From assembly GCA_000004985.1 (NCBI GenBank), contig GG738993.1: 7,485 nucleotides of DNA. One strand, written 5' to 3'. Shown in pieces: positions 1 through 7,485 of this stretch. Made by a program: the position numbers and the translations under genes. The stretch's first letter is position 1. Each line of letters opens with the position of its first letter. This stretch comes from Naegleria gruberi. Taxonomy: Eukaryota. The notes under the pieces are model-generated. The model searched no databases. It was not told the DNA's origin and worked only from the letters and a program-made list of their open reading frames with translations.

Positions 1-165
1 AAAAAGTTGCGACTTTGTGTGGACACACATGGATATTGAGCGATTATAATGATTATAGCGGAACGAATCTGAAGATTTTTCATGTTACATTCATCTCTAA
101 ACATTATCCGAAAGCAAACTAAAAAAAATCCGAAACTGATGACCTAGTTTCTTCTTATCATCATC

Positions 166-356: not shown

Positions 357-2926
357 GTTGTGGATGTTCATATTGAAAGAAATATTTCTCGTTCGGACTG
401 TGCTTCGTTTCTGCAAGTTGAATTATTCGAAAGTAAGAATAATTTGCAATATTTGCAATTGTATTTAAGATTTATTGGAAACGGCAATGGAATTGATTGT
501 GATAACCAAGGATTCTTTGCATTTACTATTAATTCATCAAAAGTTACAAGATTAGTCCAATTTCAAAATGTCACCTTTCAATCGGTTCAATTATTTGGTG
601 AATTACTTATATTTAGAGATGTTAACTTTGATGGTGGAGTTACTGTTTATGAAAATGCAATAGTTATGTGGAAAGTAAATGGTGAACTACCTATTGGAAA
701 GATTTCAATAGAAGAAAGTCGATGGAGATCAATTCTATTGGTGGATTCGAATTTTGCAGTCGAATCTTTGAATTATTTGGAGAAGGTAACTTCATTGTGG
801 ATTATTAGAGTGGCATTTAAATTGAATAACGTATTCCAATTGGTGAATATTGATGATTTGATATTGGAACATGTTAAATTCATGCCAGAAATTTATGATA
901 ATCGAATTTACAAATCTCCATTTGTATCCTTACGATTTATCAAATATGTAGTATTATTTAGAACTGAAATTGATGGATTTTCATATCAAACTGCTTTGAG
1001 TATTGAATATTCTGTTAATGTATTGATTTCATACTCATCCTTTTCGAATAATCATGTAAATTCCAAAGATTCCAATACGAATATACTCCTAGCAAAGGGA
1101 CTCAATCAATTACATGTTCTATATTGTAACTTTTTCAATAATATTGCAGAGTATGGTTCTGTTTTTGAAATTACTGGAATAAGTTCTCTATTAATTAGTA
1201 TGAATTCATTTCACAATAATACTATTGCTAATAGTGCTTTATATTTGGGAAGATATGTCGATACACACTATAGCTATGTGAGGATTCAGAATTCGATATT
1301 TACCGATAACAAAAGTTATTCGAAGGGAGGTGCACTAACCATTGACAAGTTATCCTCAGAACCTAATTTAAGCATTGAAGTTTATGGATGTTCCTTTTCT
1401 GAAAATAGTGGTGAATTTGGTGGTGCTATTCATTCATTTTCCAAATTATTGGTCACTGGAGGAATGTTTTATTCCAATACAGCAGTTCAACAGGGAGGTG
1501 CTATCTTTGCCAAGGATGGCCTCTCTCTTAGAAGCACATATTTTATTAATAATTCAGTAATTGATACAAGTCTAACCTATTGTACAGATAATAATTGTAT
1601 TGGTAGTGGAGGAGCTGTTTCGTTTCTCGTTGAAAATGGATCAGATTCATCCCTAGTGATATTCAGAAGCTCTTTCGATGGTAACACAGCCACTAGAGGA
1701 GGTGGTATTAGTATTAGCAGACCCGATGAGTTGAGTATTGAAGGTAATACTTTTAAAGATTGCAAAGCTGATTTTGCTGGAGGAGCACTTTTCATTAGCT
1801 CAATACTTAATCAAACATTTTCTAGCTCGCTAATTGAAAGTAACGAATTTTCAAATAATCAAGGATTGACTTATGGGGATGATATGAGTTCAATAGTTTA
1901 CACAGTCAATTGGAAATACTCAATTGATGGAAAACAGTATAATTATTTAGATTCGAATGGAATCAAAATTTATCCTGGGCAGGTATTCTCACTTTTTCCT
2001 GAAGCTTTTGACATTTTTGACCAATACATTCCAGTATTGAAGGAAACAAGTGAATTAGGCATCAAAAATAGTGATAAATTCCAATTAGAAAGACAAGGTT
2101 ATTCATTCGGTAACATATTCATTTCCGTTATCAATCAAACAGATTTTGACTCAACAAAATTGACATTGGTGAGCGCGTTTAGTGTTACCATTTCTGAAAT
2201 TCCAATTATTGTTGAACCATGCCCTTCTGATACAAGTTTAAAGCCAGCCAATTATGGAAAATCTTATGATTTCATTTGTCAGCAAAAGCCATCCTATGAT
2301 TATGTTATTGCTGTGGCTGTAACTCTAACCGTACTCACATTATCATTCTCTGTGGGAATGGTAGCAGTTTGTACCTATTTATGTGTTAAAATAACTCGAA
2401 AAGTTAATTATTGGGTTAAAAGAGATAAAGCAGAAAAGGACATTGAGAAGAGATTGTTGGAAAACGAAATAACCTACATGGAGGATCATTCTCTACAAAC
2501 TGTCAACAGTACAGGATCTGGTAAGAGACAACAAGTGTCCTTCATCATTAGTATCGATCAGATATTTCCAGAAAAGAAGATTGGAGAAGGTGGATCAGGA
2601 GTTGTCTATTTGGGAAAGTGGCATCACCATCCTGTTGCTATCAAATGTTTGAAAATTGAAGACACTGCCAATTCTGATGAAATTGAAAAGGAAGCTGCAA
2701 TGTTATGTCGATTGAGACATCCTAATATTGTGCTATTTTATGGTGTTTCACTAACACAACACAAGCAATACCTCGTAGTTGAATATTTGGAAAGAGGAAG
2801 CTTGGAAAAGTATATTCAAGATATGAAACGTCAAGAAATATCAGTAACCTTCTCTGAAAAGTTGAAACTCTTAATTGACATTGCATGTGGAATGGTTTAT
2901 TTACACAGTTTGAAAATAATTCATAG
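357..2926 (+). CDS. receptor-like protein kinase, main exon: ectodomain with Pmp-type beta-helix repeats, single TM, juxtamembrane segment and kinase N-lobe up to catalytic-loop HR
   Basis: 856-codon open frame (track 360..2930) that is open back to the N-run, so there is no true start here. Several NxS/T sequons (NISR, NSSK, NVTF, NNTI, NKSY, NLSI, NNSV, NGSD, NQTF, NQTD). About 10 repeats of FxxN followed about 10-15 aa later by GGA[ILV] (GGALTIDK, GGAIHSFS, GGAIFAKD, GGAVSFLV, GGGISISR, GGALFISS). Hydrophobic 28-aa stretch then a basic stop-transfer (KITRKVNYWVKRDK). Kinase motifs IGEGGSGVVYLGKW, VAIKCLK, LVVEYLERGSLEKY, HR. The frame ends AG|GTAAGT at 2926/2927. Confidence 0.85.
1041..1890 (+). 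repeat. coding region for about 10 tandem about 25-aa Pmp-type (Chlamydia polymorphic membrane protein-like) FxxN/GGA[IL] repeats; parallel beta-helix signature
   Basis: FSNN 1041-1052, FFNN, FHNN, FTDN...GGALTI (GGA at 1326-1334), FSEN...GGAIHS, FYSN...GGAIFA, FINN...GGAVSF, FDGN...GGGISI, FKDC...GGALFI, FSNN 1848-1859. Spacing is regular. Confidence 0.75.
2304..2388 (+). other. transmembrane helix coding segment (VIAVAVTLTVLTLSFSVGMVAVCTYLCV)
   Basis: 28 consecutive hydrophobic or small residues, followed by K/R-rich residues on the cytoplasmic side. Lies between the glycosylated ectodomain and the kinase domain. Confidence 0.8.
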
Positions 2927-2975
2927 GTAAGTGTGTTCATATTAAGAATATTAGAATTTTACCAATGAAAATTAG
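2927..2975 (+). other. spliceosomal intron (49 nt, GTAAGT...ATTAG), phase 2, splitting the kinase catalytic loop HR|DLKPANIL
   Basis: The exon ends ...CAT AG | gtaagtgtgttc. After ...aaaattag the base A2976 completes AGA (Arg), and GAT TTG AAA CCT GCC AAT ATT TTG follows, giving the canonical HRDLKPxN motif. Unspliced, the frame hits TAA at 2928. Confidence 0.85.
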
Positions 2976-3019
2976 AGATTTGAAACCTGCCAATATTTTG
3001 ATGGATGCCAACTGGACTG
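2976..3019 (+). CDS. receptor-like kinase, next exon (R-DLKPANILMDANWT...), runs into assembly gap
   Basis: In phase with the upstream exon after splicing. Catalytic loop DLKPANIL, typical of Ser/Thr and TKL kinases. Truncated by the N-run at 3020. Confidence 0.8.
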
Positions 3020-5225
3020 NNNNNNNNNNNNNNNNNNNNNNNNNNNNNNNNNNNNNNNNNNNNNNNNNNNNNNNNNNNNNNNNNNNNNNNNNNNNNNNNN
3101 NNNNNNNNNNNNNNNNNNNNNNNNNNNNNNNNNNNNNNNNNNNNNNNNNNNNNNNNNNNNNNNNNNNNNNNNNNNNNNNNNNNNNNNNNNNNNNNNNNNN
3201 NNNNNNNNNNNNNNNNNNNNNNNNNNNNNNNNNNNNNNNNNNNNNNNNNNNNNNNNNNNNNNNNNNNNNNNNNNNNNNNNNNNNNNNNNNNNNNNNNNNN
3301 NNNNNNNNNNNNNNNNNNNNNNNNNNNNNNNNNNNNNNNNNNNNNNNNNNNNNNNNNNNNNNNNNNNNNNNNNNNNNNNNNNNNNNNNNNNNNNNNNNNN
3401 NNNNNNNNNNNNNNNNNNNNNNNNNNNNNNNNNNNNNNNNNNNNNNNNNNNNNNNNNNNNNNNNNNNNNNNNNNNNNNNNNNNNNNNNNNNNNNNNNNNN
3501 NNNNNNNNNNNNNNNNNNNNNNNNNNNNNNNNNNNNNNNNNNNNNNNNNNNNNNNNNNNNNNNNNNNNNNNNNNNNNNNNNNNNNNNNNNNNNNNNNNNN
3601 NNNNNNNNNNNNNNNNNNNNNNNNNNNNNNNNNNNNNNNNNNNNNNNNNNNNNNNNNNNNNNNNNNNNNNNNNNNNNNNNNNNNNNNNNNNNNNNNNNNN
3701 NNNNNNNNNNNNNNNNNNNNNNNNNNNNNNNNNNNNNNNNNNNNNNNNNNNNNNNNNNNNNNNNNNNNNNNNNNNNNNNNNNNNNNNNNNNNNNNNNNNN
3801 NNNNNNNNNNNNNNNNNNNNNNNNNNNNNNNNNNNNNNNNNNNNNNNNNNNNNNNNNNNNNNNNNNNNNNNNNNNNNNNNNNNNNNNNNNNNNNNNNNNN
3901 NNNNNNNNNNNNNNNNNNNNNNNNNNNNNNNNNNNNNNNNNNNNNNNNNNNNNNNNNNNNNNNNNNNNNNNNNNNNNNNNNNNNNNNNNNNNNNNNNNNN
4001 NNNNNNNNNNNNNNNNNNNNNNNNNNNNNNNNNNNNNNNNNNNNNNNNNNNNNNNNNNNNNNNNNNNNNNNNNNNNNNNNNNNNNNNNNNNNNNNNNNNN
4101 NNNNNNNNNNNNNNNNNNNNNNNNNNNNNNNNNNNNNNNNNNNNNNNNNNNNNNNNNNNNNNNNNNNNNNNNNNNNNNNNNNNNNNNNNNNNNNNNNNNN
4201 NNNNNNNNNNNNNNNNNNNNNNNNNNNNNNNNNNNNNNNNNNNNNNNNNNNNNNNNNNNNNNNNNNNNNNNNNNNNNNNNNNNNNNNNNNNNNNNNNNNN
4301 NNNNNNNNNNNNNNNNNNNNNNNNNNNNNNNNNNNNNNNNNNNNNNNNNNNNNNNNNNNNNNNNNNNNNNNNNNNNNNNNNNNNNNNNNNNNNNNNNNNN
4401 NNNNNNNNNNNNNNNNNNNNNNNNNNNNNNNNNNNNNNNNNNNNNNNNNNNNNNNNNNNNNNNNNNNNNNNNNNNNNNNNNNNNNNNNNNNNNNNNNNNN
4501 NNNNNNNNNNNNNNNNNNNNNNNNNNNNNNNNNNNNNNNNNNNNNNNNNNNNNNNNNNNNNNNNNNNNNNNNNNNNNNNNNNNNNNNNNNNNNNNNNNNN
4601 NNNNNNNNNNNNNNNNNNNNNNNNNNNNNNNNNNNNNNNNNNNNNNNNNNNNNNNNNNNNNNNNNNNNNNNNNNNNNNNNNNNNNNNNNNNNNNNNNNNN
4701 NNNNNNNNNNNNNNNNNNNNNNNNNNNNNNNNNNNNNNNNNNNNNNNNNNNNNNNNNNNNNNNNNNNNNNNNNNNNNNNNNNNNNNNNNNNNNNNNNNNN
4801 NNNNNNNNNNNNNNNNNNNNNNNNNNNNNNNNNNNNNNNNNNNNNNNNNNNNNNNNNNNNNNNNNNNNNNNNNNNNNNNNNNNNNNNNNNNNNNNNNNNN
4901 NNNNNNNNNNNNNNNNNNNNNNNNNNNNNNNNNNNNNNNNNNNNNNNNNNNNNNNNNNNNNNNNNNNNNNNNNNNNNNNNNNNNNNNNNNNNNNNNNNNN
5001 NNNNNNNNNNNNNNNNNNNNNNNNNNNNNNNNNNNNNNNNNNNNNNNNNNNNNNNNNNNNNNNNNNNNNNNNNNNNNNNNNNNNNNNNNNNNNNNNNNNN
5101 NNNNNNNNNNNNNNNNNNNNNNNNNNNNNNNNNNNNNNNNNNNNNNNNNNNNNNNNNNNNNNNNNNNNNNNNNNNNNNNNNNNNNNNNNNNNNNNNNNNN
5201 NNNNNNNNNNNNNNNNNNNNNNNNN
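3020..5225. other. assembly gap or masked region (2206 N)
   Basis: Uninterrupted N-run. The ORF-track entries 2965..5238 and 3005..5287 are artefacts of translating N as X. Confidence 0.95.
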
Positions 5226-5281
5226 ATTTTGCTTTTGATGATAAAGGAAGATGTGATATTGATTTATTTTTTTATTTTAAA

Positions 5282-5332
5282 CCCTAATGACGGAAATAAG
5301 TGGTAGTTTGCAAAAAATCGAGGGGTAAAATC
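5282..5332. repeat. intergenic composite motif, copy A: CCCTAATGACGG (5282-5293), GAAATAAGTGGTAGTTTG, TTGCAAAAAATCGAGGGGTAAAATC (5308-5332). Related half-sites GTGAGGGGTTGATTTGCAA (5390-5408) and TTGAGGACTTGAATTTT (5412-5428).
   Basis: Blocks shared with 6906-7008 (see the finding). GC-rich islands in AT-rich spacer. Confidence 0.5.
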
Positions 5333-5336
5333 AGGT

Positions 5337-5360
5337 ACCACTATCTGAACAGTGGTTTTT
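5337..5360 (+). other. 6-bp perfect hairpin (ACCACT-atctgaac-AGTGGT) followed directly by TTTTT
   Basis: The stem and T5 are read directly. It lies in the convergent 3' intergenic space between the kinase gene and the minus-strand gene. Confidence 0.3.
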
Positions 5361-5449
5361 ATCAAATCCAGACCTGGCTTTTTGAAAAAGTGAGGGGTTG
5401 ATTTGCAATAAATTGAGGACTTGAATTTTTTACAATCATAACCTAAACT

Positions 5450-5455
5450 TTTATT
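5450..5455 (-). promoter_or_regulatory. AATAAA polyadenylation signal of the minus-strand gene
   Basis: The + strand TTTATT at 5450-5455 lies 6 nt downstream, in the minus sense, of the TGA at 5463-5461. Confidence 0.4.
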
Positions 5456-5460
5456 AAGAG

Positions 5461-5647
5461 TCAACTTAGCAGAATGGAATGGTTGGAAAAATGACCAAGA
5501 CCAAATGAATCAACAAATGAAAATGCGAGGTCTTTGAGGTTAGTAATTGGCTCCGTGAAAGTGTGAGTAAATTTCCCATCCACGTAATTATCCAAAATAG
5601 CAGATACAGTATTGTTCTTCTCAATAAAACTTGTGATTATTACACGT
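5461..5647 (-). CDS. last coding exon of minus-strand gene (...RVIITSFIEKNNTVSAILDNYVDGKFTHTFTEPITNLKDLAFSFVDSFGLGHFSNHSILLS*)
   Basis: 60 sense codons stay open in the phase fixed by the upstream exon, then TGA at 5463-5461. On the minus strand AATAAA lies at 5455-5450, 6 nt after the stop. Acceptor atattttag at 5650-5648. Confidence 0.6.
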
Positions 5648-5686
5648 CTAAAATATTAGTTGCAATTTAGTTATGAAACCACTTAC
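5648..5686 (-). other. intron (39 nt; GTAAGT...TTTTAG) of minus-strand gene
   Basis: Minus-strand GTAAGT at 5686-5681 and TAG acceptor at 5650-5648. Splicing keeps a 93-codon frame open across exons 2 and 3. Confidence 0.6.
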
Positions 5687-5784
5687 TTTCCACTGCTAGT
5701 AAAAGCATATTGAGATTGATTTAAGTGAAAAATCCATTGATTTGACACTAACAATGTTCCCTGAAACAGTCTTGACCACCAAAT
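5687..5784 (-). CDS. internal exon (98 nt; IWWSRLFQGTLLVSNQWIFHLNQSQYAFTSSGK) of minus-strand gene
   Basis: Only one of three frames is open. It is bounded by a ccctttcag acceptor (AG at 5786-5785) and a GTAAGT donor (5686-5681). The phase matches both flanking exons. Confidence 0.55.
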
Positions 5785-5884
5785 CTGAAAGGGATGTATT
5801 AATACGGAAATCCTAAAGATATCAATAAATTAATTAATTTAAATACTTACATGATTCTTATCGATTAGTCGTAGAATTAAATAC
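5785..5884 (-). other. intron (100 nt; donor AAG|GTATTT at 5884, acceptor TTTCAG at 5785) of minus-strand gene
   Basis: A donor at 5884-5883 skips the in-frame TAA at 5860-5858 and keeps the frame. An internal GTAAGT at 5850-5845 is an alternative donor that would instead end the protein at ...KVFNSTTNR*. Confidence 0.45.
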
Positions 5885-6340
5885 CTTTGCCATTTTGCCA
5901 AAGTTGAGCACATATTTCAACAGAGCATCTTTAGTTTTACATAATAAATGATCTTTGGGAAGCAATTCTCCTAATAATTTCAATAACAATCCAATCTTTG
6001 ATGTTGCAATCTCGAAAAATACAATAATAAAGAGAATAATTGTTATTGCTGTAACAACATTCACCGCCTACCCCTTATACAATGATTCGTCAACAATACT
6101 ACTACTATTGTCATTTAAATCAAATCCTCCCAATTCTCCAAAACTGAAACTCTCTTGCTCATGAAAAATTACTTCTTGTTGTCCAGATTTCAAACTTGAT
6201 TCATCTATTTCCAATTTCCAATTTCCAGTTAATAATTGTTCCTTTGTTACATTTTTGCTAATATCTTCATAGTCTCTTTTACAACCTTCTTGATACGTTT
6301 TCGTTCTCTGTATGTTTTTGTGTATTGAATGTTTTTCTTC
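5885..6340 (-). CDS. 5'-ward exon of minus-strand gene. 151 codons in one frame, interrupted by a single in-frame TAG at 6070-6068. Includes the hydrophobic segment VVTAITIILFIIVFFEIATSKIGLLLKLL. The 5' end and start codon are not resolved.
   Basis: Minus-strand frame: EEKHSIHKNIQRTKTYQEGCKRDYEDISKNVTKEQLLTGNWKLEIDESSLKSGQQEVIFHEQESFSFGELGGFDLNDNSSSIVDESLYKG-TAG-AVNVVTAITIILFIIVFFEIATSKIGLLLKLLGELLPKDHLLCKTKDALLKYVLNFGKMAK. The frame is closed upstream by TAA at 6343-6341. An ATG at 6359-6357 is in another frame. The purine-rich coding strand is the minus strand. Confidence 0.45.
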
Positions 6341-6430
6341 TTAACGCTTTTTGATTCATTTTTAATGTTTCATAAATGATAGACTTCTTAATTTAGAAAT
6401 TCTTCTTTCCAATAAAAGTGCTTTCTGTAG

Positions 6431-6648
6431 ATGGTGTTGGAGCCAAGATTAGATTTGAAGAGGTTGTTATTTCAGATAAAATCAATGAAGGAGAACACCT
6501 TGACATTCAGTTGGTAGAGGATATTTGCTTGACTTTTCAAAATGAGTGTCTCTTCAGTGAAATCAAGGACAAGATCAAAGACTATTTGAGTTCAGCTTTG
6601 AAAAAGAGAAGAGTCGAATTGAAGTTGAATAGTGTTTGTGACTTGTAA
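6431..6648 (+). CDS. terminal coding exon with no ATG (...VDGVGAKIRFEEVVISDKINEGEHLDIQLVEDICLTFQNECLFSEIKDKIKDYLSSALKKRRVELKLNSVCDL*) of an unidentified small gene
   Basis: 84-codon open frame with coding-like purine-rich composition and codon usage like the kinase gene. No in-frame ATG. The acceptor-like site ttcttctttccaataaaagtgctttctgtag ends at 6430. TAA at 6646-6648, then AATAAA at 6688-6693 and a GT-rich element at 6699-6718. No upstream partner exon was found. Confidence 0.4.
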
Positions 6649-6687
6649 ATTGGTGTGATGAGTGTGATGTGACAATTCTAAAAATTG

Positions 6688-6718
6688 AATAAACCAAATT
6701 TGTGTGCTATGGTGTGTT
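6688..6718 (+). promoter_or_regulatory. putative polyadenylation signal AATAAA plus a downstream GU-rich element for the 6431-6648 exon
   Basis: AATAAA lies 40 nt after the TAA. tttgtgtgctatggtgtgtt lies just downstream. Confidence 0.4.
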
Positions 6719-6905
6719 AGCCATTTAGGAATTGAATTTTGGTGGTCTGTTGTTTTTCGGAATGAGGTAGTTGTTTTTCAAAAGTAGCCGCCCTCTATTC
6801 TTTTTTCGAAAAATCAACTCCCGAATTTAATAAAACTTAATAGTTAAATACAGGGTACAATTTATGAAAAACACCAACCCTGTTGTTTAGCTGTGTGATT
6901 CTGAT

Positions 6906-7008
6906 GAAATGTGGTAGAAGATTTGTGTCAAAGTAGGACCTAAATTCATTTTTTTTTTGCTCAGGTTGGTGGTTTTTTGCGGTTCAGGGGTAAATCCCGT
7001 CATTAGGG
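6906..7008. repeat. intergenic composite motif, copy B: GAAATGTGGTAGAAGATTTG (6906-6925), TTTTTTGCGGTTCAGGGGTAAATC (6973-6996), CCGTCATTAGGG (6997-7008). Lies immediately upstream of the CPSF1 start.
   Basis: The 12-mer CCGTCATTAGGG is the exact reverse complement of 5282-5293. Both copies carry the (C/G)AGGGGTAAA(A)TC and GAAAT..GTGGTAG..TTTG blocks. Confidence 0.5.
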
Positions 7009-7051
7009 AAATAAATTTTAATAAAAATAAATTAAAAAAATTTCCAATACA

Positions 7052-7485
7052 ATGTTCGCGTGCTACAAACAGCTTCATCCTCCAACAGCTGTGTCATTCT
7101 GTTTGAAGGCACGATTTACATCAGCTAATGATGAAAATCTGATCATTGTTAAAAACAACATTATGGAGGTTTATTTAATCAAACCGAATACATCCAATAT
7201 TGTTCTTGTAAAAGTTTTTGAATTATTTGGAGTAATTGATTCTATAATTGCTGTTTGTCTTCAGGGTATGAAAAAGGAAATGCTTTTAATTAACTTTGAA
7301 GATGAAGCAAAAGTATCTGTTGTGGAGTTTGATGAGAAGAGGAGTGATCTTAAAACTTTATCTTTGCATTATCTCGAAGATGACTTTTTGAGAGAAGGTA
7401 AAGCTAGATTCTTTCACAATCAACCAATTATTTTGGATCCACAAAATAGATTTGCTACAGTAATTATTTGCGACTCTAAATTAGT
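7052..7485 (+). CDS. CPSF1: cleavage and polyadenylation specificity factor 160 kDa subunit (CPSF1) homolog, N-terminal beta-propeller region; the CDS continues past the window end
   Basis: ATG at 7052, then 144 codons open to the window end. The translation [43 protein letters not shown]...[45 protein letters not shown] matches the conserved N-terminus of metazoan CPSF1, recalled from memory as MYAVYKQAHPPTGLEF...[38 protein letters not shown]. The weaker relatives DDB1 and SF3B3 belong to the same family. Confidence 0.8.
   Translation, partial: [144 protein letters not shown]

What the first reader, a model, noticed from the sequence alone, without database searches (positions are those of the whole stretch)
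5268..5335. Composite GC-rich motif set shared between two intergenic regions with one block inverted
Copy A (5282-5332) and copy B (6906-7008) share three blocks. Block 1 is GAAAT(aa)GTGGTAG(...)TTTG. Block 2 is TTGC...(C/G)AGGGGTAAA(A)TC. Block 3 is the exact 12-mer CCGTCATTAGGG, which sits 3' of the others in B but is inverted and 5' in A (CCCTAATGACGG at 5282). Copy A also has two further GAGGGGT or GAGGACT half-sites with TTGCAAA or TTTGCAA arms in inverted orientation (5308-5332 versus 5390-5408). These are islands of G/C in AT-rich spacer. One lies right upstream of the CPSF1 ATG and the other sits between two convergent 3' ends. That pattern fits a modular cis-regulatory or insulator element bound by one factor (core about GGGGTAAATC) or the eroded ends of a small dispersed repeat such as a MITE or foldback element. 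A lone shared 12-mer could be chance in 5 kb. The co-occurrence of three blocks within about 50-100 nt in both places makes it much less likely by chance.
Basis: seen in the sequence. Interest (0 to 1): 0.5.

Follow-up and report, generated by a model that had tools for sequence, protein, structure and literature searches.

The report
Two ends of one transposon
The two "motif copies" are the left and right ends of a single 1.7-kb mobile DNA element in Naegleria gruberi, bounded by perfect 12-base inverted repeats and landed just upstream of the CPSF1 gene; this is an ordinary transposon insertion, not a regulatory module.

Summary
The window is a whole 7,485-bp Naegleria gruberi scaffold, and its N runs are assembly gaps. 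The reported sequences are all present: CCCTAATGACGG at 5282-5293, its reverse complement at 6997-7008, AGGGGTAAA at 5321 and 6986, and GTGGTAG at 5300 and 6911.

Inside the window the evidence is only marginal. The 12-mer alone has p~0.17. Gapped alignments of the flanks are not significant.

Two contigs from one environmental sequencing run (L003 and L004) settled the question. They are 98-99% identical to the window from the first base of the left 12-mer to the last base of the right 12-mer. They are unrelated immediately outside on both sides and carry different neighbouring genes.

So 5282-7008 is one discrete 1,727-bp unit with perfect 12-bp terminal inverted repeats. A second matching 8-mer, GCAAAAAA, sits at positions 29-36 from both ends (p~0.001).

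No transposase or other known domain is detectable inside. The internal ORFs carry frame-breaking indels in one copy, and the few substitutions seen in ORF translations all change an amino acid. I read it as a non-autonomous TIR DNA transposon inserted 43 bp upstream of the CPSF1 ATG.

Target-site duplication and superfamily are unresolved. The cis-regulatory reading is not supported. Interest is modest.

The parts
5282..7008 (.). Whole mobile element, 1,727 bp
   Evidence: It is 99.2% identical to L004 (396-2096) and 97.8% identical to L003 (1-1683). Identity starts and stops exactly at these coordinates. The flanks match nothing but themselves.
5282..5293 (+). Left terminal inverted repeat, CCCTAATGACGG
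   Evidence: It is the exact reverse complement of 6997-7008. It is also the left homology boundary against L004.
6997..7008 (+). Right terminal inverted repeat, CCGTCATTAGGG
   Evidence: Exact match shown. It is the right homology boundary against L003.
5310..5317 (+). Subterminal box GCAAAAAA, positions 29-36 from the left end
   Evidence: It is the in-register inverted match to 6973-6980. The shuffle test for an in-register run of 8 gives p = 0.00135.
6973..6980 (-). Subterminal box GCAAAAAA (reads TTTTTTGC on the + strand), positions 29-36 from the right end
5293..5332 (+).
   Evidence: The words are shared with the right end in direct orientation, and their significance is borderline. GTGGTAG reads GCGGTAG in L004.
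6906..6996 (+). TTGCGGTTCAGGGGTAAATC), in the right subterminal region
5279..5281 (.). AAA directly left of the element, a possible 3-bp target-site duplication
   Evidence: Read from the sequence. It matches 7009-7011. This is weak evidence because the flanks are AT-rich.
7009..7011 (.). AAA directly right of the element, a possible 3-bp target-site duplication
   Evidence: Read from the sequence. The unpaired flanks of L004 (GTA) and L003 (AAT) do not match each other.
5461..6358 (-). Internal ORF-like, intron-like region on the minus strand, with no recognisable domain
   Evidence: Searches show moderate coding potential at 5946-6216. Pfam, NCBIfam and PDB sequence searches found nothing. 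An in-frame TAG at 6068-6070 is present in all three copies. L003 has 9-nt and 1-nt deletions here.
6418..6648 (+). Internal 76-codon ORF with no in-frame ATG
   Evidence: Among 1.84 billion representative proteins, the only relative is the same ORF in L003. That copy is frameshifted by a 2-nt deletion at 6610-6611.
7052..7485 (+). Flanking host gene: the N-terminal part of CPSF1/DDB1-type beta-propeller protein, whose ATG lies 43 bp after the element
   Evidence: Pfam PF10433, E = 1.3e-13. It is not part of the element, and L003 has a PfkB-like ORF in this position instead.

Best explanation
Window 5282-7008 is one copy of a 1,727-bp class II (cut-and-paste type) DNA transposon of Naegleria gruberi. 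It looks non-autonomous.

Its ends are perfect 12-bp terminal inverted repeats, CCCTAATGACGG ... CCGTCATTAGGG. A second inverted box, GCAAAAAA, lies at positions 29-36 from each terminus. The finding's 'copy A' and 'copy B' are the left and right terminal and subterminal regions of this single element. This explains why the 12-mer is inverted and lies on the outer side of each block set.

This copy sits in an AT-rich spacer 43 bp upstream of the CPSF1 start codon.

**Shown here.**
- The unit is discrete.
- The boundaries are the same in three copies or variants with different flanks.
- The termini form a two-part inverted repeat.
- No domain is detectable inside.
- The internal ORFs are not conserved as coding sequence.

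**Inferred, not shown.**
- A transposase encoded elsewhere in the genome binds the 12-bp termini (and perhaps the 29-36 box and the G-rich subterminal words GGGGT and GTGGT), then excises and reinserts the element.
The data do not decide between these.
For: **Origin of the window.** One search shows the window is a complete N. gruberi scaffold (P0001, 100% identity, longest contig 7,485 bp).

**Finding the other copies.** In one search the internal ORF found a 99%-identical ORF, P0068. Searches then retrieved L003 (ENA assembly ERZ929261) and L004 (Logan contig). Both come from sequencing run ERR1078381.

**Boundaries.**
- The three-way alignment is 97.8-99.2% identical from window 5282 to 7008.
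- No similarity exists immediately outside either end.
- Left flanks: window TTTATTTTAAA|CCC against L004 AAAAAGTGTA|CCC.
- Right flanks: window GGG|AAATAAATTTT followed by CPSF1, against L003 GGG|AATAATAATG followed by the 3' end of a minus-strand PfkB-like ORF.
- By BLAST, each flank matches only itself.

**Terminal structure.** The inverted 12-mer is exact. An in-register 8-mer lies at positions 29-36 of both ends, p = 0.00135.

**No known coding content.** No Pfam, NCBIfam or PDB sequence match was found for the internal ORFs.

**No coding conservation between copies.**
- The 9-nt and 12-nt deletions in L003 keep the reading frame.
- The 1-nt and 2-nt deletions in L003 break it.
- Comparing the ORF translations by eye, every substitution I could place in an ORF-like frame changes an amino acid.

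**At least two variants in one sample.** L003 and L004 come from the same run but differ by several indels.
Against: - No target-site duplication is established. The window copy has only AAA/AAA in AT-rich DNA. The L004 left flank (GTA) and the L003 right flank (AAT) do not match, though they may belong to different loci.
- No transposase or autonomous partner was found.
- Copy number in the N. gruberi genome could not be measured, because N. gruberi scaffolds were not retrievable.
- Only three copies or variants, from two sources, were seen.
- No superfamily can be assigned from the termini.
- At 1.7 kb with moderately positive coding potential at 5946-6216, the interior could still be an unrecognised gene rather than decayed sequence.
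Confidence: 0.8

Rival explanations
1. The 1.7-kb block was moved or duplicated by a process that is not transposase-mediated. Candidates are segmental duplication, ectopic recombination, or a site-specific recombination cassette that uses the 12-mer as its site. Alternatively, two independent rearrangement breakpoints happen to fall at the 12-mers.
For: - No clear target-site duplication and no transposase were found.
- Only three copies or variants were seen.
Against: - Both homology breakpoints coincide, to within 1-2 nt, with the outer ends of a perfect inverted 12-mer.
- An in-register second inverted box sits at positions 29-36. This architecture is the signature of TIR elements and is not expected from random breakpoints.
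- 99% identity extends through non-coding parts of the block, with zero similarity outside.
Confidence: 0.1
2. One reading: A and B are modular cis-regulatory or insulator sites bound by one factor (core about GGGGTAAATC, plus the 12-mer). They act on CPSF1 and on a neighbouring gene.
For: - B lies 45-145 nt upstream of the CPSF1 ATG.
- GGGGT and GTGGT words are concentrated in A and B.
- The co-occurrence of words has p about 0.01-0.06 given the 12-mer.
Against: - The same ends occur beside the 3' ends of unrelated ORFs in L003 and L004. Their position next to CPSF1 is therefore an accident of insertion.
- The motifs are absent from the kinase upstream region and from the 6215-6420 region of the window.
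- They are absent from 11.7 kb of L001 and from the region upstream of a distant CPSF1 orthologue (L002).
- The flanks show no significant gapped similarity.
- Block 1 varies between copies: GCGGTAG in L004.
Confidence: 0.04
3. A and B are two separate, eroded copies of a small dispersed repeat such as a MITE or foldback element.
For: Shared short words, one of them inverted.
Against: - The words are not collinear, and gapped alignment of A against B is at the shuffle mean.
- Neither region has its own inverted ends.
- The entire interval between them travels with them at 98-99% identity.
Confidence: 0.03
4. A and/or B encode small structured RNAs, such as snoRNA-like or Pol III transcripts ending in T runs.
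For: - A hairpin followed by T5 at 5337-5361.
- A weak, non-canonical C/D-like arrangement (AUGACGG ... CUGA) in A.
Against: - No Rfam match even at E = 10, and no tRNA.
- Folding z-scores range from -0.8 to +0.5.
- A C/D scan gives equally good candidates inside coding sequence.
Confidence: 0.02

Closest known systems
Non-autonomous TIR (class II) DNA transposons, e.g. Ds elements of the Ac/Ds system
   Same: - A discrete unit with short perfect terminal inverted repeats.
- Subterminal short sequence repeats.
- No transposase of its own.
- Identical ends in copies at different loci.
- Internal sequence that evolves without coding constraint.
   Different: - The termini (CCCTAATGACGG) do not fit the hAT YARNG ends, and there is no 8-bp target-site duplication.
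- The autonomous partner and the superfamily are unknown.
PIF/Harbinger (with Tourist-like derivatives) and other superfamilies with 3-bp target duplications (CACTA, Zator, Academ); comparison drawn from my own knowledge of these families
   Same: - A possible 3-bp duplication (AAA/AAA) flanks the window copy.
- The terminal repeats are short, 12-14 bp.
- Insertion is into AT-rich DNA.
   Different: - AAA is not the TWA target typical of PIF/Harbinger.
- The termini are not CACTA.
- The duplication is not confirmed in a second copy.
- No DDE or Myb-like ORF is present.
piggyBac-like elements; comparison drawn from my own knowledge of the family
   Same: - The termini begin CCCT... and end ...AGGG (piggyBac: CCCTAGAAAGATA).
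- The terminal repeat is about 12-13 bp, with a further internal repeat a short distance inside.
- A TTAA lies 1 nt from the left end (TTAA-A-CCC).
   Different: - There is no TTAA directly at either junction. The right flank is AAAT, so the defining TTAA duplication is not met.
- No piggyBac transposase domain is present.
MITEs
   Same: - Non-autonomous, bounded by terminal inverted repeats.
- Found close to genes, in AT-rich spacers.
   Different: - At 1,727 bp it is well above the usual MITE size of under about 800 bp.
- High copy number has not been shown.

Membership tests
TIR (class II) DNA transposon | Terminal inverted repeats at the exact ends of the unit | tested here: met
   Perfect 12-bp inverted repeat at 5282-5293 / 6997-7008, plus an in-register 8-mer at positions 29-36.
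TIR (class II) DNA transposon | Same unit with the same boundaries in different genomic contexts | tested here: met
   Window, L003 and L004 are 98-99% identical inside 5282-7008 and unrelated outside, with different neighbouring ORFs.
TIR (class II) DNA transposon | Target-site duplication of fixed length flanking each copy | tested here: inconclusive
   The window copy has AAA/AAA, but only in AT-rich DNA. L004-left (GTA) and L003-right (AAT) do not match and may come from different loci.
TIR (class II) DNA transposon | Multiple copies within one genome | not testable with these tools
   N. gruberi scaffolds could not be retrieved. Two variants do coexist in run ERR1078381.
Autonomous DNA transposon | Encodes a transposase (DDE/RNase H-like or other) | tested here: not met
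   No Pfam, NCBIfam or PDB sequence hit for any internal ORF. The ORFs are frameshifted between copies.
MITE | Small size (under about 800 bp) and high copy number | tested here: not met
   The unit is 1,727 bp. Copy number was not measurable.
piggyBac superfamily | TTAA target-site duplication directly flanking CCC...GGG termini | tested here: not met
   The junctions read TTTTAAA|CCC and GGG|AAATAAA in the window, and GTGTA|CCC and GGG|AATAAT in L004 and L003.
PIF/Harbinger superfamily | 3-bp TWA target-site duplication, with DDE transposase and Myb-like ORFs in autonomous members | tested here: inconclusive
   A 3-bp AAA duplication is possible but is not TWA. The element has no such ORFs, though non-autonomous members would lack them anyway.
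Cis-regulatory or insulator module | Recurs at comparable positions relative to genes, independently of surrounding sequence | tested here: not met
   It recurs only as part of the whole 1.7-kb unit. In L003 and L004 it lies next to 3' ends of genes. It is absent from the other promoters examined.
Structured non-coding RNA | Match to a known family, or a stable or conserved secondary structure | tested here: not met
   Rfam gave no match, no tRNA was found, and folding z-scores are about 0.

The most novel reading that the evidence does not exclude
The element belongs to a TIR transposon lineage of Heterolobosea that has not been described. It would have a two-part end (a 12-bp terminus plus a GCAAAAAA box at positions 29-36) recognised by a transposase still to be identified. 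Its internal ORF-like genes would be functional cargo rather than decayed sequence. The copy 43 bp upstream of CPSF1 would be a hemizygous insertion that both reshapes that gene's promoter and explains why this locus was assembled as a separate small scaffold.
Probability: 0.12. Interest if true: 0.45.

Novelty: new member of a known kind. Interest (0 to 1): 0.3.

Why it matters
- It replaces a speculative regulatory motif with a concrete, testable object: a mobile element with defined ends in Naegleria gruberi, an organism whose transposons are little studied in the literature I could search.
- The 12-bp termini and the 29-36 box are a ready probe for counting copies, finding the autonomous partner and assigning a superfamily.
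- The insertion lies 43 bp from the start codon of CPSF1. This would be a natural case for asking how compact Naegleria promoters tolerate insertions.
- The insertion may also explain a redundant small scaffold in the reference assembly.
- The ORF-like sequences at 5461-6648 should not be annotated as ordinary host genes without further evidence.
- None of this is surprising in kind.

Tried and rejected
- **Known RNA families.** Rfam at E <= 10 and ARAGORN found nothing in A or B.
- **RNA folding.** Both strands of A and B give z-scores from -0.8 to +0.5.
- **C/D snoRNA scan.** It found only non-canonical candidates, and equally good ones lie inside coding sequence.
- **tRNA-like A-box/B-box reading** of GTGGTAG and GGTTCA...ATCC. 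Rejected because the spacings do not fit and no tRNA was found.
- **Telomere-box reading of TTAGGG.** Weakened, because the candidate N. gruberi telomere repeat is TTTGGG (PMC3622300).
- **Promoter-element reading** (12-mer, then an AT-rich tract, then the ATG). The outward flanks are not similar (p = 0.74), and the other copies abut 3' ends.
- **Poly(A) or downstream-element reading.** N. gruberi uses AAUAAA with cleavage 15-20 nt downstream (PMC11529991). This places A and B outside the putative mRNAs, but it does not explain the inverted 12-mer.
- **Retrieving N. gruberi scaffolds** through P0001, P0039 and P0040 failed.
- **CPSF1 N-terminus as a protein query** found no homologue.
- **The single metagenome scan** returned only a distant CPSF1 orthologue (48% identity, L002) with no motif upstream.
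- **Scans with the element ends** found nothing in viral contigs or in bacterial/archaeal genome contigs.
- **Literature searches** for the motif strings, for Naegleria promoter motifs or transposons, and for the sample accession gave nothing relevant.
- **Superfamily assignment.** Target-duplication lengths of 2-10 bp were checked by eye; only 2-3 bp (AA/AAA) fits the window copy.

Full report
**1. Where the window comes from.**

The kinase ORF of the window is 100% identical to a 'predicted protein [Naegleria gruberi]' whose longest contig is 7,485 bp (P0001). The window is therefore a complete small N. gruberi scaffold. The N runs at 306-355 and 3020-5225 are assembly gaps.

The readable genes are:
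- A transmembrane kinase with a PMP-repeat ectodomain, on the + strand from 166 into the large gap.
- An ORF-like, intron-containing region on the minus strand, about 6358 to 5461.
- A 76-codon + strand ORF at 6418-6648 with no in-frame ATG.
- The N-terminus of a CPSF1/DDB1-type beta-propeller protein, starting at 7052 (Pfam PF10433).

**2. The observation.**

- CCCTAATGACGG at 5282-5293 and its exact reverse complement at 6997-7008.
- AGGGGTAAA at 5321 and 6986.
- GTGGTAG at 5300 and 6911.
- GAGGGGT at 5320 and 5392, and TTTGCAA at 5307 and 5402.

Two contextual statements do not hold:
- 'Between two convergent 3' ends' cannot be known, because the 2.2-kb gap ends 57 nt to the left of copy A.
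- The TTGCAAA/GAGGGGT 'arms' are permuted, not inverted.

**3. Is it more than chance, judged from the window alone?**

Only marginally.
- An exact repeat as informative as the 12-mer appears in 17% of dinucleotide shuffles. The window even holds a more informative 16-mer shared by two coding regions in different frames, which looks like chance.
- The 12-mer plus two further words within 130 nt appears in 2-3% of shuffles.
- Conditional on the 12-mer, the additional words have p = 0.008-0.06, depending on flank length.
- Gapped local alignments of A against B, and of inner or outward flanks in either orientation, are not above shuffles.
- The shared words are not collinear.

No RNA explanation stands:
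- Rfam gives nothing at E <= 10, and there is no tRNA.
- Folding z-scores are between -0.8 and +0.5.
- A C/D-box scan gives nothing better than it finds inside coding sequence.

**4. The decisive evidence.**

N. gruberi scaffolds could not be retrieved. A search of the internal 76-codon ORF against 1.84 billion representative proteins then found one near-identical ORF, P0068. Its contig is L003 (1,975 nt, ENA assembly ERZ929261). A Logan contig carrying the window's exact ORF is L004 (2,096 nt). Both come from the same sequencing run, ERR1078381.

A three-way alignment and BLAST show the following:
- The window is 99.2% identical to L004 and 97.8% identical to L003 over the interval that starts at the first C of CCCTAATGACGG (window 5282, L004 396) and ends at the last G of CCGTCATTAGGG (window 7008, L003 1683).
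- Immediately outside, on both sides, there is no similarity.
- To the left, the window has an AT-rich spacer (...TTTATTTTAAA|). L004 has the 3' end of a + strand ORF and a 46-nt spacer (...AAAAAGTGTA|).
- To the right, the window has 43 nt of AT-rich spacer and then the CPSF1 ATG. L003 has |AATAATAATG... and then the 3' end of a minus-strand PfkB-like ORF.
- Each flank matches only itself.

So 5282-7008 is a discrete 1,727-bp unit found in different genomic contexts, and the two 12-mers are its exact ends.

**5. Anatomy of the ends.**

I read both ends inward in the same register. Positions 1-12 are identical, and positions 29-36 are identical again (GCAAAAAA: 5310-5317, and 6973-6980 on the other strand). 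An in-register run of 8 beyond the terminus has p = 0.00135 by shuffling. Beyond that the two ends are unrelated.

It is on the same strand at both ends, which means it has opposite orientation relative to the two termini. Block 1 (GTGGTAG) lies at positions 19-25 from the left end and 92-98 from the right end.

GTGGT and GGGGT words are concentrated in the two subterminal regions. Whether they are transposase-binding repeats or coincidence cannot be decided. In L004 the left GTGGTAG reads GCGGTAG.

**6. Content of the element.**

- None of the internal ORF-like stretches matches Pfam, NCBIfam or any PDB sequence.
- The 76-codon ORF has no relative among 1.84 billion representatives apart from its own copy.
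- L003 carries 9-nt, 1-nt, 12-nt and 2-nt deletions relative to the window. The 1-nt deletion falls in the minus-strand ORF-like region. The 2-nt deletion frameshifts the + ORF.
- Comparing the ORF translations by eye, every substitution I could place in an ORF-like frame changes an amino acid.
- An in-frame TAG at 6068-6070 is shared by all three copies.
- The interior therefore shows no sign of purifying selection. I found no NCBI protein model for it, although the kinase model P0001 is in the same database.

**7. Interpretation.**

A unit with perfect short terminal inverted repeats, a second in-register inverted box, identical boundaries in copies with different flanks, and no transposase is best explained as a non-autonomous TIR DNA transposon. 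It would be mobilised in trans by a transposase that recognises its termini.

The unit, its ends and its occurrence in different contexts are shown. The transposase, the cut-and-paste mechanism and the role of the subterminal words are inferred.

The target-site duplication is unresolved. The window copy is flanked by AAA/AAA, which is weak evidence in AT-rich DNA. L004-left (GTA) and L003-right (AAT) do not match. However, L003 and L004 differ by several indels and may be two different copies.

The termini resemble piggyBac ends in starting CCCT and ending AGGG, but TTAA is not at the junctions. A 3-bp duplication would fit PIF/Harbinger, CACTA, Zator or Academ, but AAA is not TWA and the ends are not CACTA. 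I do not assign a superfamily.

**8.

The position of 'copy B' just upstream of CPSF1 reflects where this copy landed. It is not a conserved regulatory arrangement, for four reasons:
- In L003 the same end abuts the 3' end of a PfkB-like ORF.
- The motifs are absent from the other upstream regions of the window.
- They are absent from 11.7 kb of a related amoeba contig, L001.
- They are absent from the region upstream of a distant CPSF1 orthologue, L002.

But A and B are the two intact ends of one element, not two eroded copies of a small one.

**9. Limits.**

- Copy number in the genome, the autonomous partner, the duplication length and an empty site could not be obtained with the available collections.
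- A non-transposase route, such as segmental duplication or a recombination cassette, keeps about 10% probability.
- The element may already be listed in a repeat library that I could not consult.

**10. Verdict.**

Its non-randomness is established by external copies rather than by statistics within the window. It is an ordinary kind of object: a new member of a known kind, of modest interest. The side points worth keeping are the insertion next to an essential gene and a caution about annotating the internal ORFs as host genes.

Noticed in passing
window 2470-3019 (kinase domain exons): The kinase fragment is 100% identical to P0039, a partial N. gruberi protein recorded on a 695,587-bp scaffold. 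The 7.5-kb window scaffold may therefore be a redundant haplotig or duplicate. It may have been assembled separately because of the transposon insertion.
   Followed up: partly
window 357-2330 (kinase ectodomain); L001 7080-10034: The receptor-type kinase has an ectodomain of Chlamydia-PMP-type repeats. Apart from one amoeba orthologue (60% identity in the kinase domain, Logan contig from SRR29240419), its nearest relatives in the protein search are bacterial and archaeal proteins. This is an unusual domain combination for a eukaryotic kinase.
   Followed up: no
window 767-782 and 7217-7232: An exact 16-mer, TTTGAATTATTTGGAG, is shared by the kinase and CPSF1 coding regions in different reading frames. 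It is more 'informative' than the 12-mer yet looks like chance, which is a useful caution for repeat-based findings in this window.
   Followed up: yes
window 6068-6070 (minus strand); L003 754-756: An in-frame TAG splits the otherwise open minus-strand reading frame 6214->5858. It is present in the window, L003 and L004. It is either a very short intron or evidence that the ORF is not functional.
   Followed up: partly
window 5337-5361: A hairpin, ACCACT-N8-AGTGGT, is followed by T5 in the left subterminal region. AGTGGT occurs three times in 5299-5357 (twice on the + strand, once on the minus strand), which allows alternative pairings.
   Followed up: partly
window 6653-6672; 5826-5841; 6802-6813: A GT-rich tandem, GTGTGATGAGTGTGATGTGA, lies just after the + ORF stop and before an AATAAA at 6688. 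There are also perfect palindromes TAAATTAATTAATTTA and TTTTTCGAAAAA inside the element.
   Followed up: no
L003 versus L004 (same run, ERR1078381): Two variants of the element coexist in one environmental sample. Relative to L004, L003 has 9-, 1-, 12-, 2- and 1-nt deletions. This means either two genomic copies or two haplotypes of a Naegleria closely related to NEG-M.
   Followed up: partly
window 19-34: A short palindrome, GTGTG-GA-CACAC, lies in the 165-nt region upstream of the kinase ATG. The element's motifs do not occur there.
   Followed up: no
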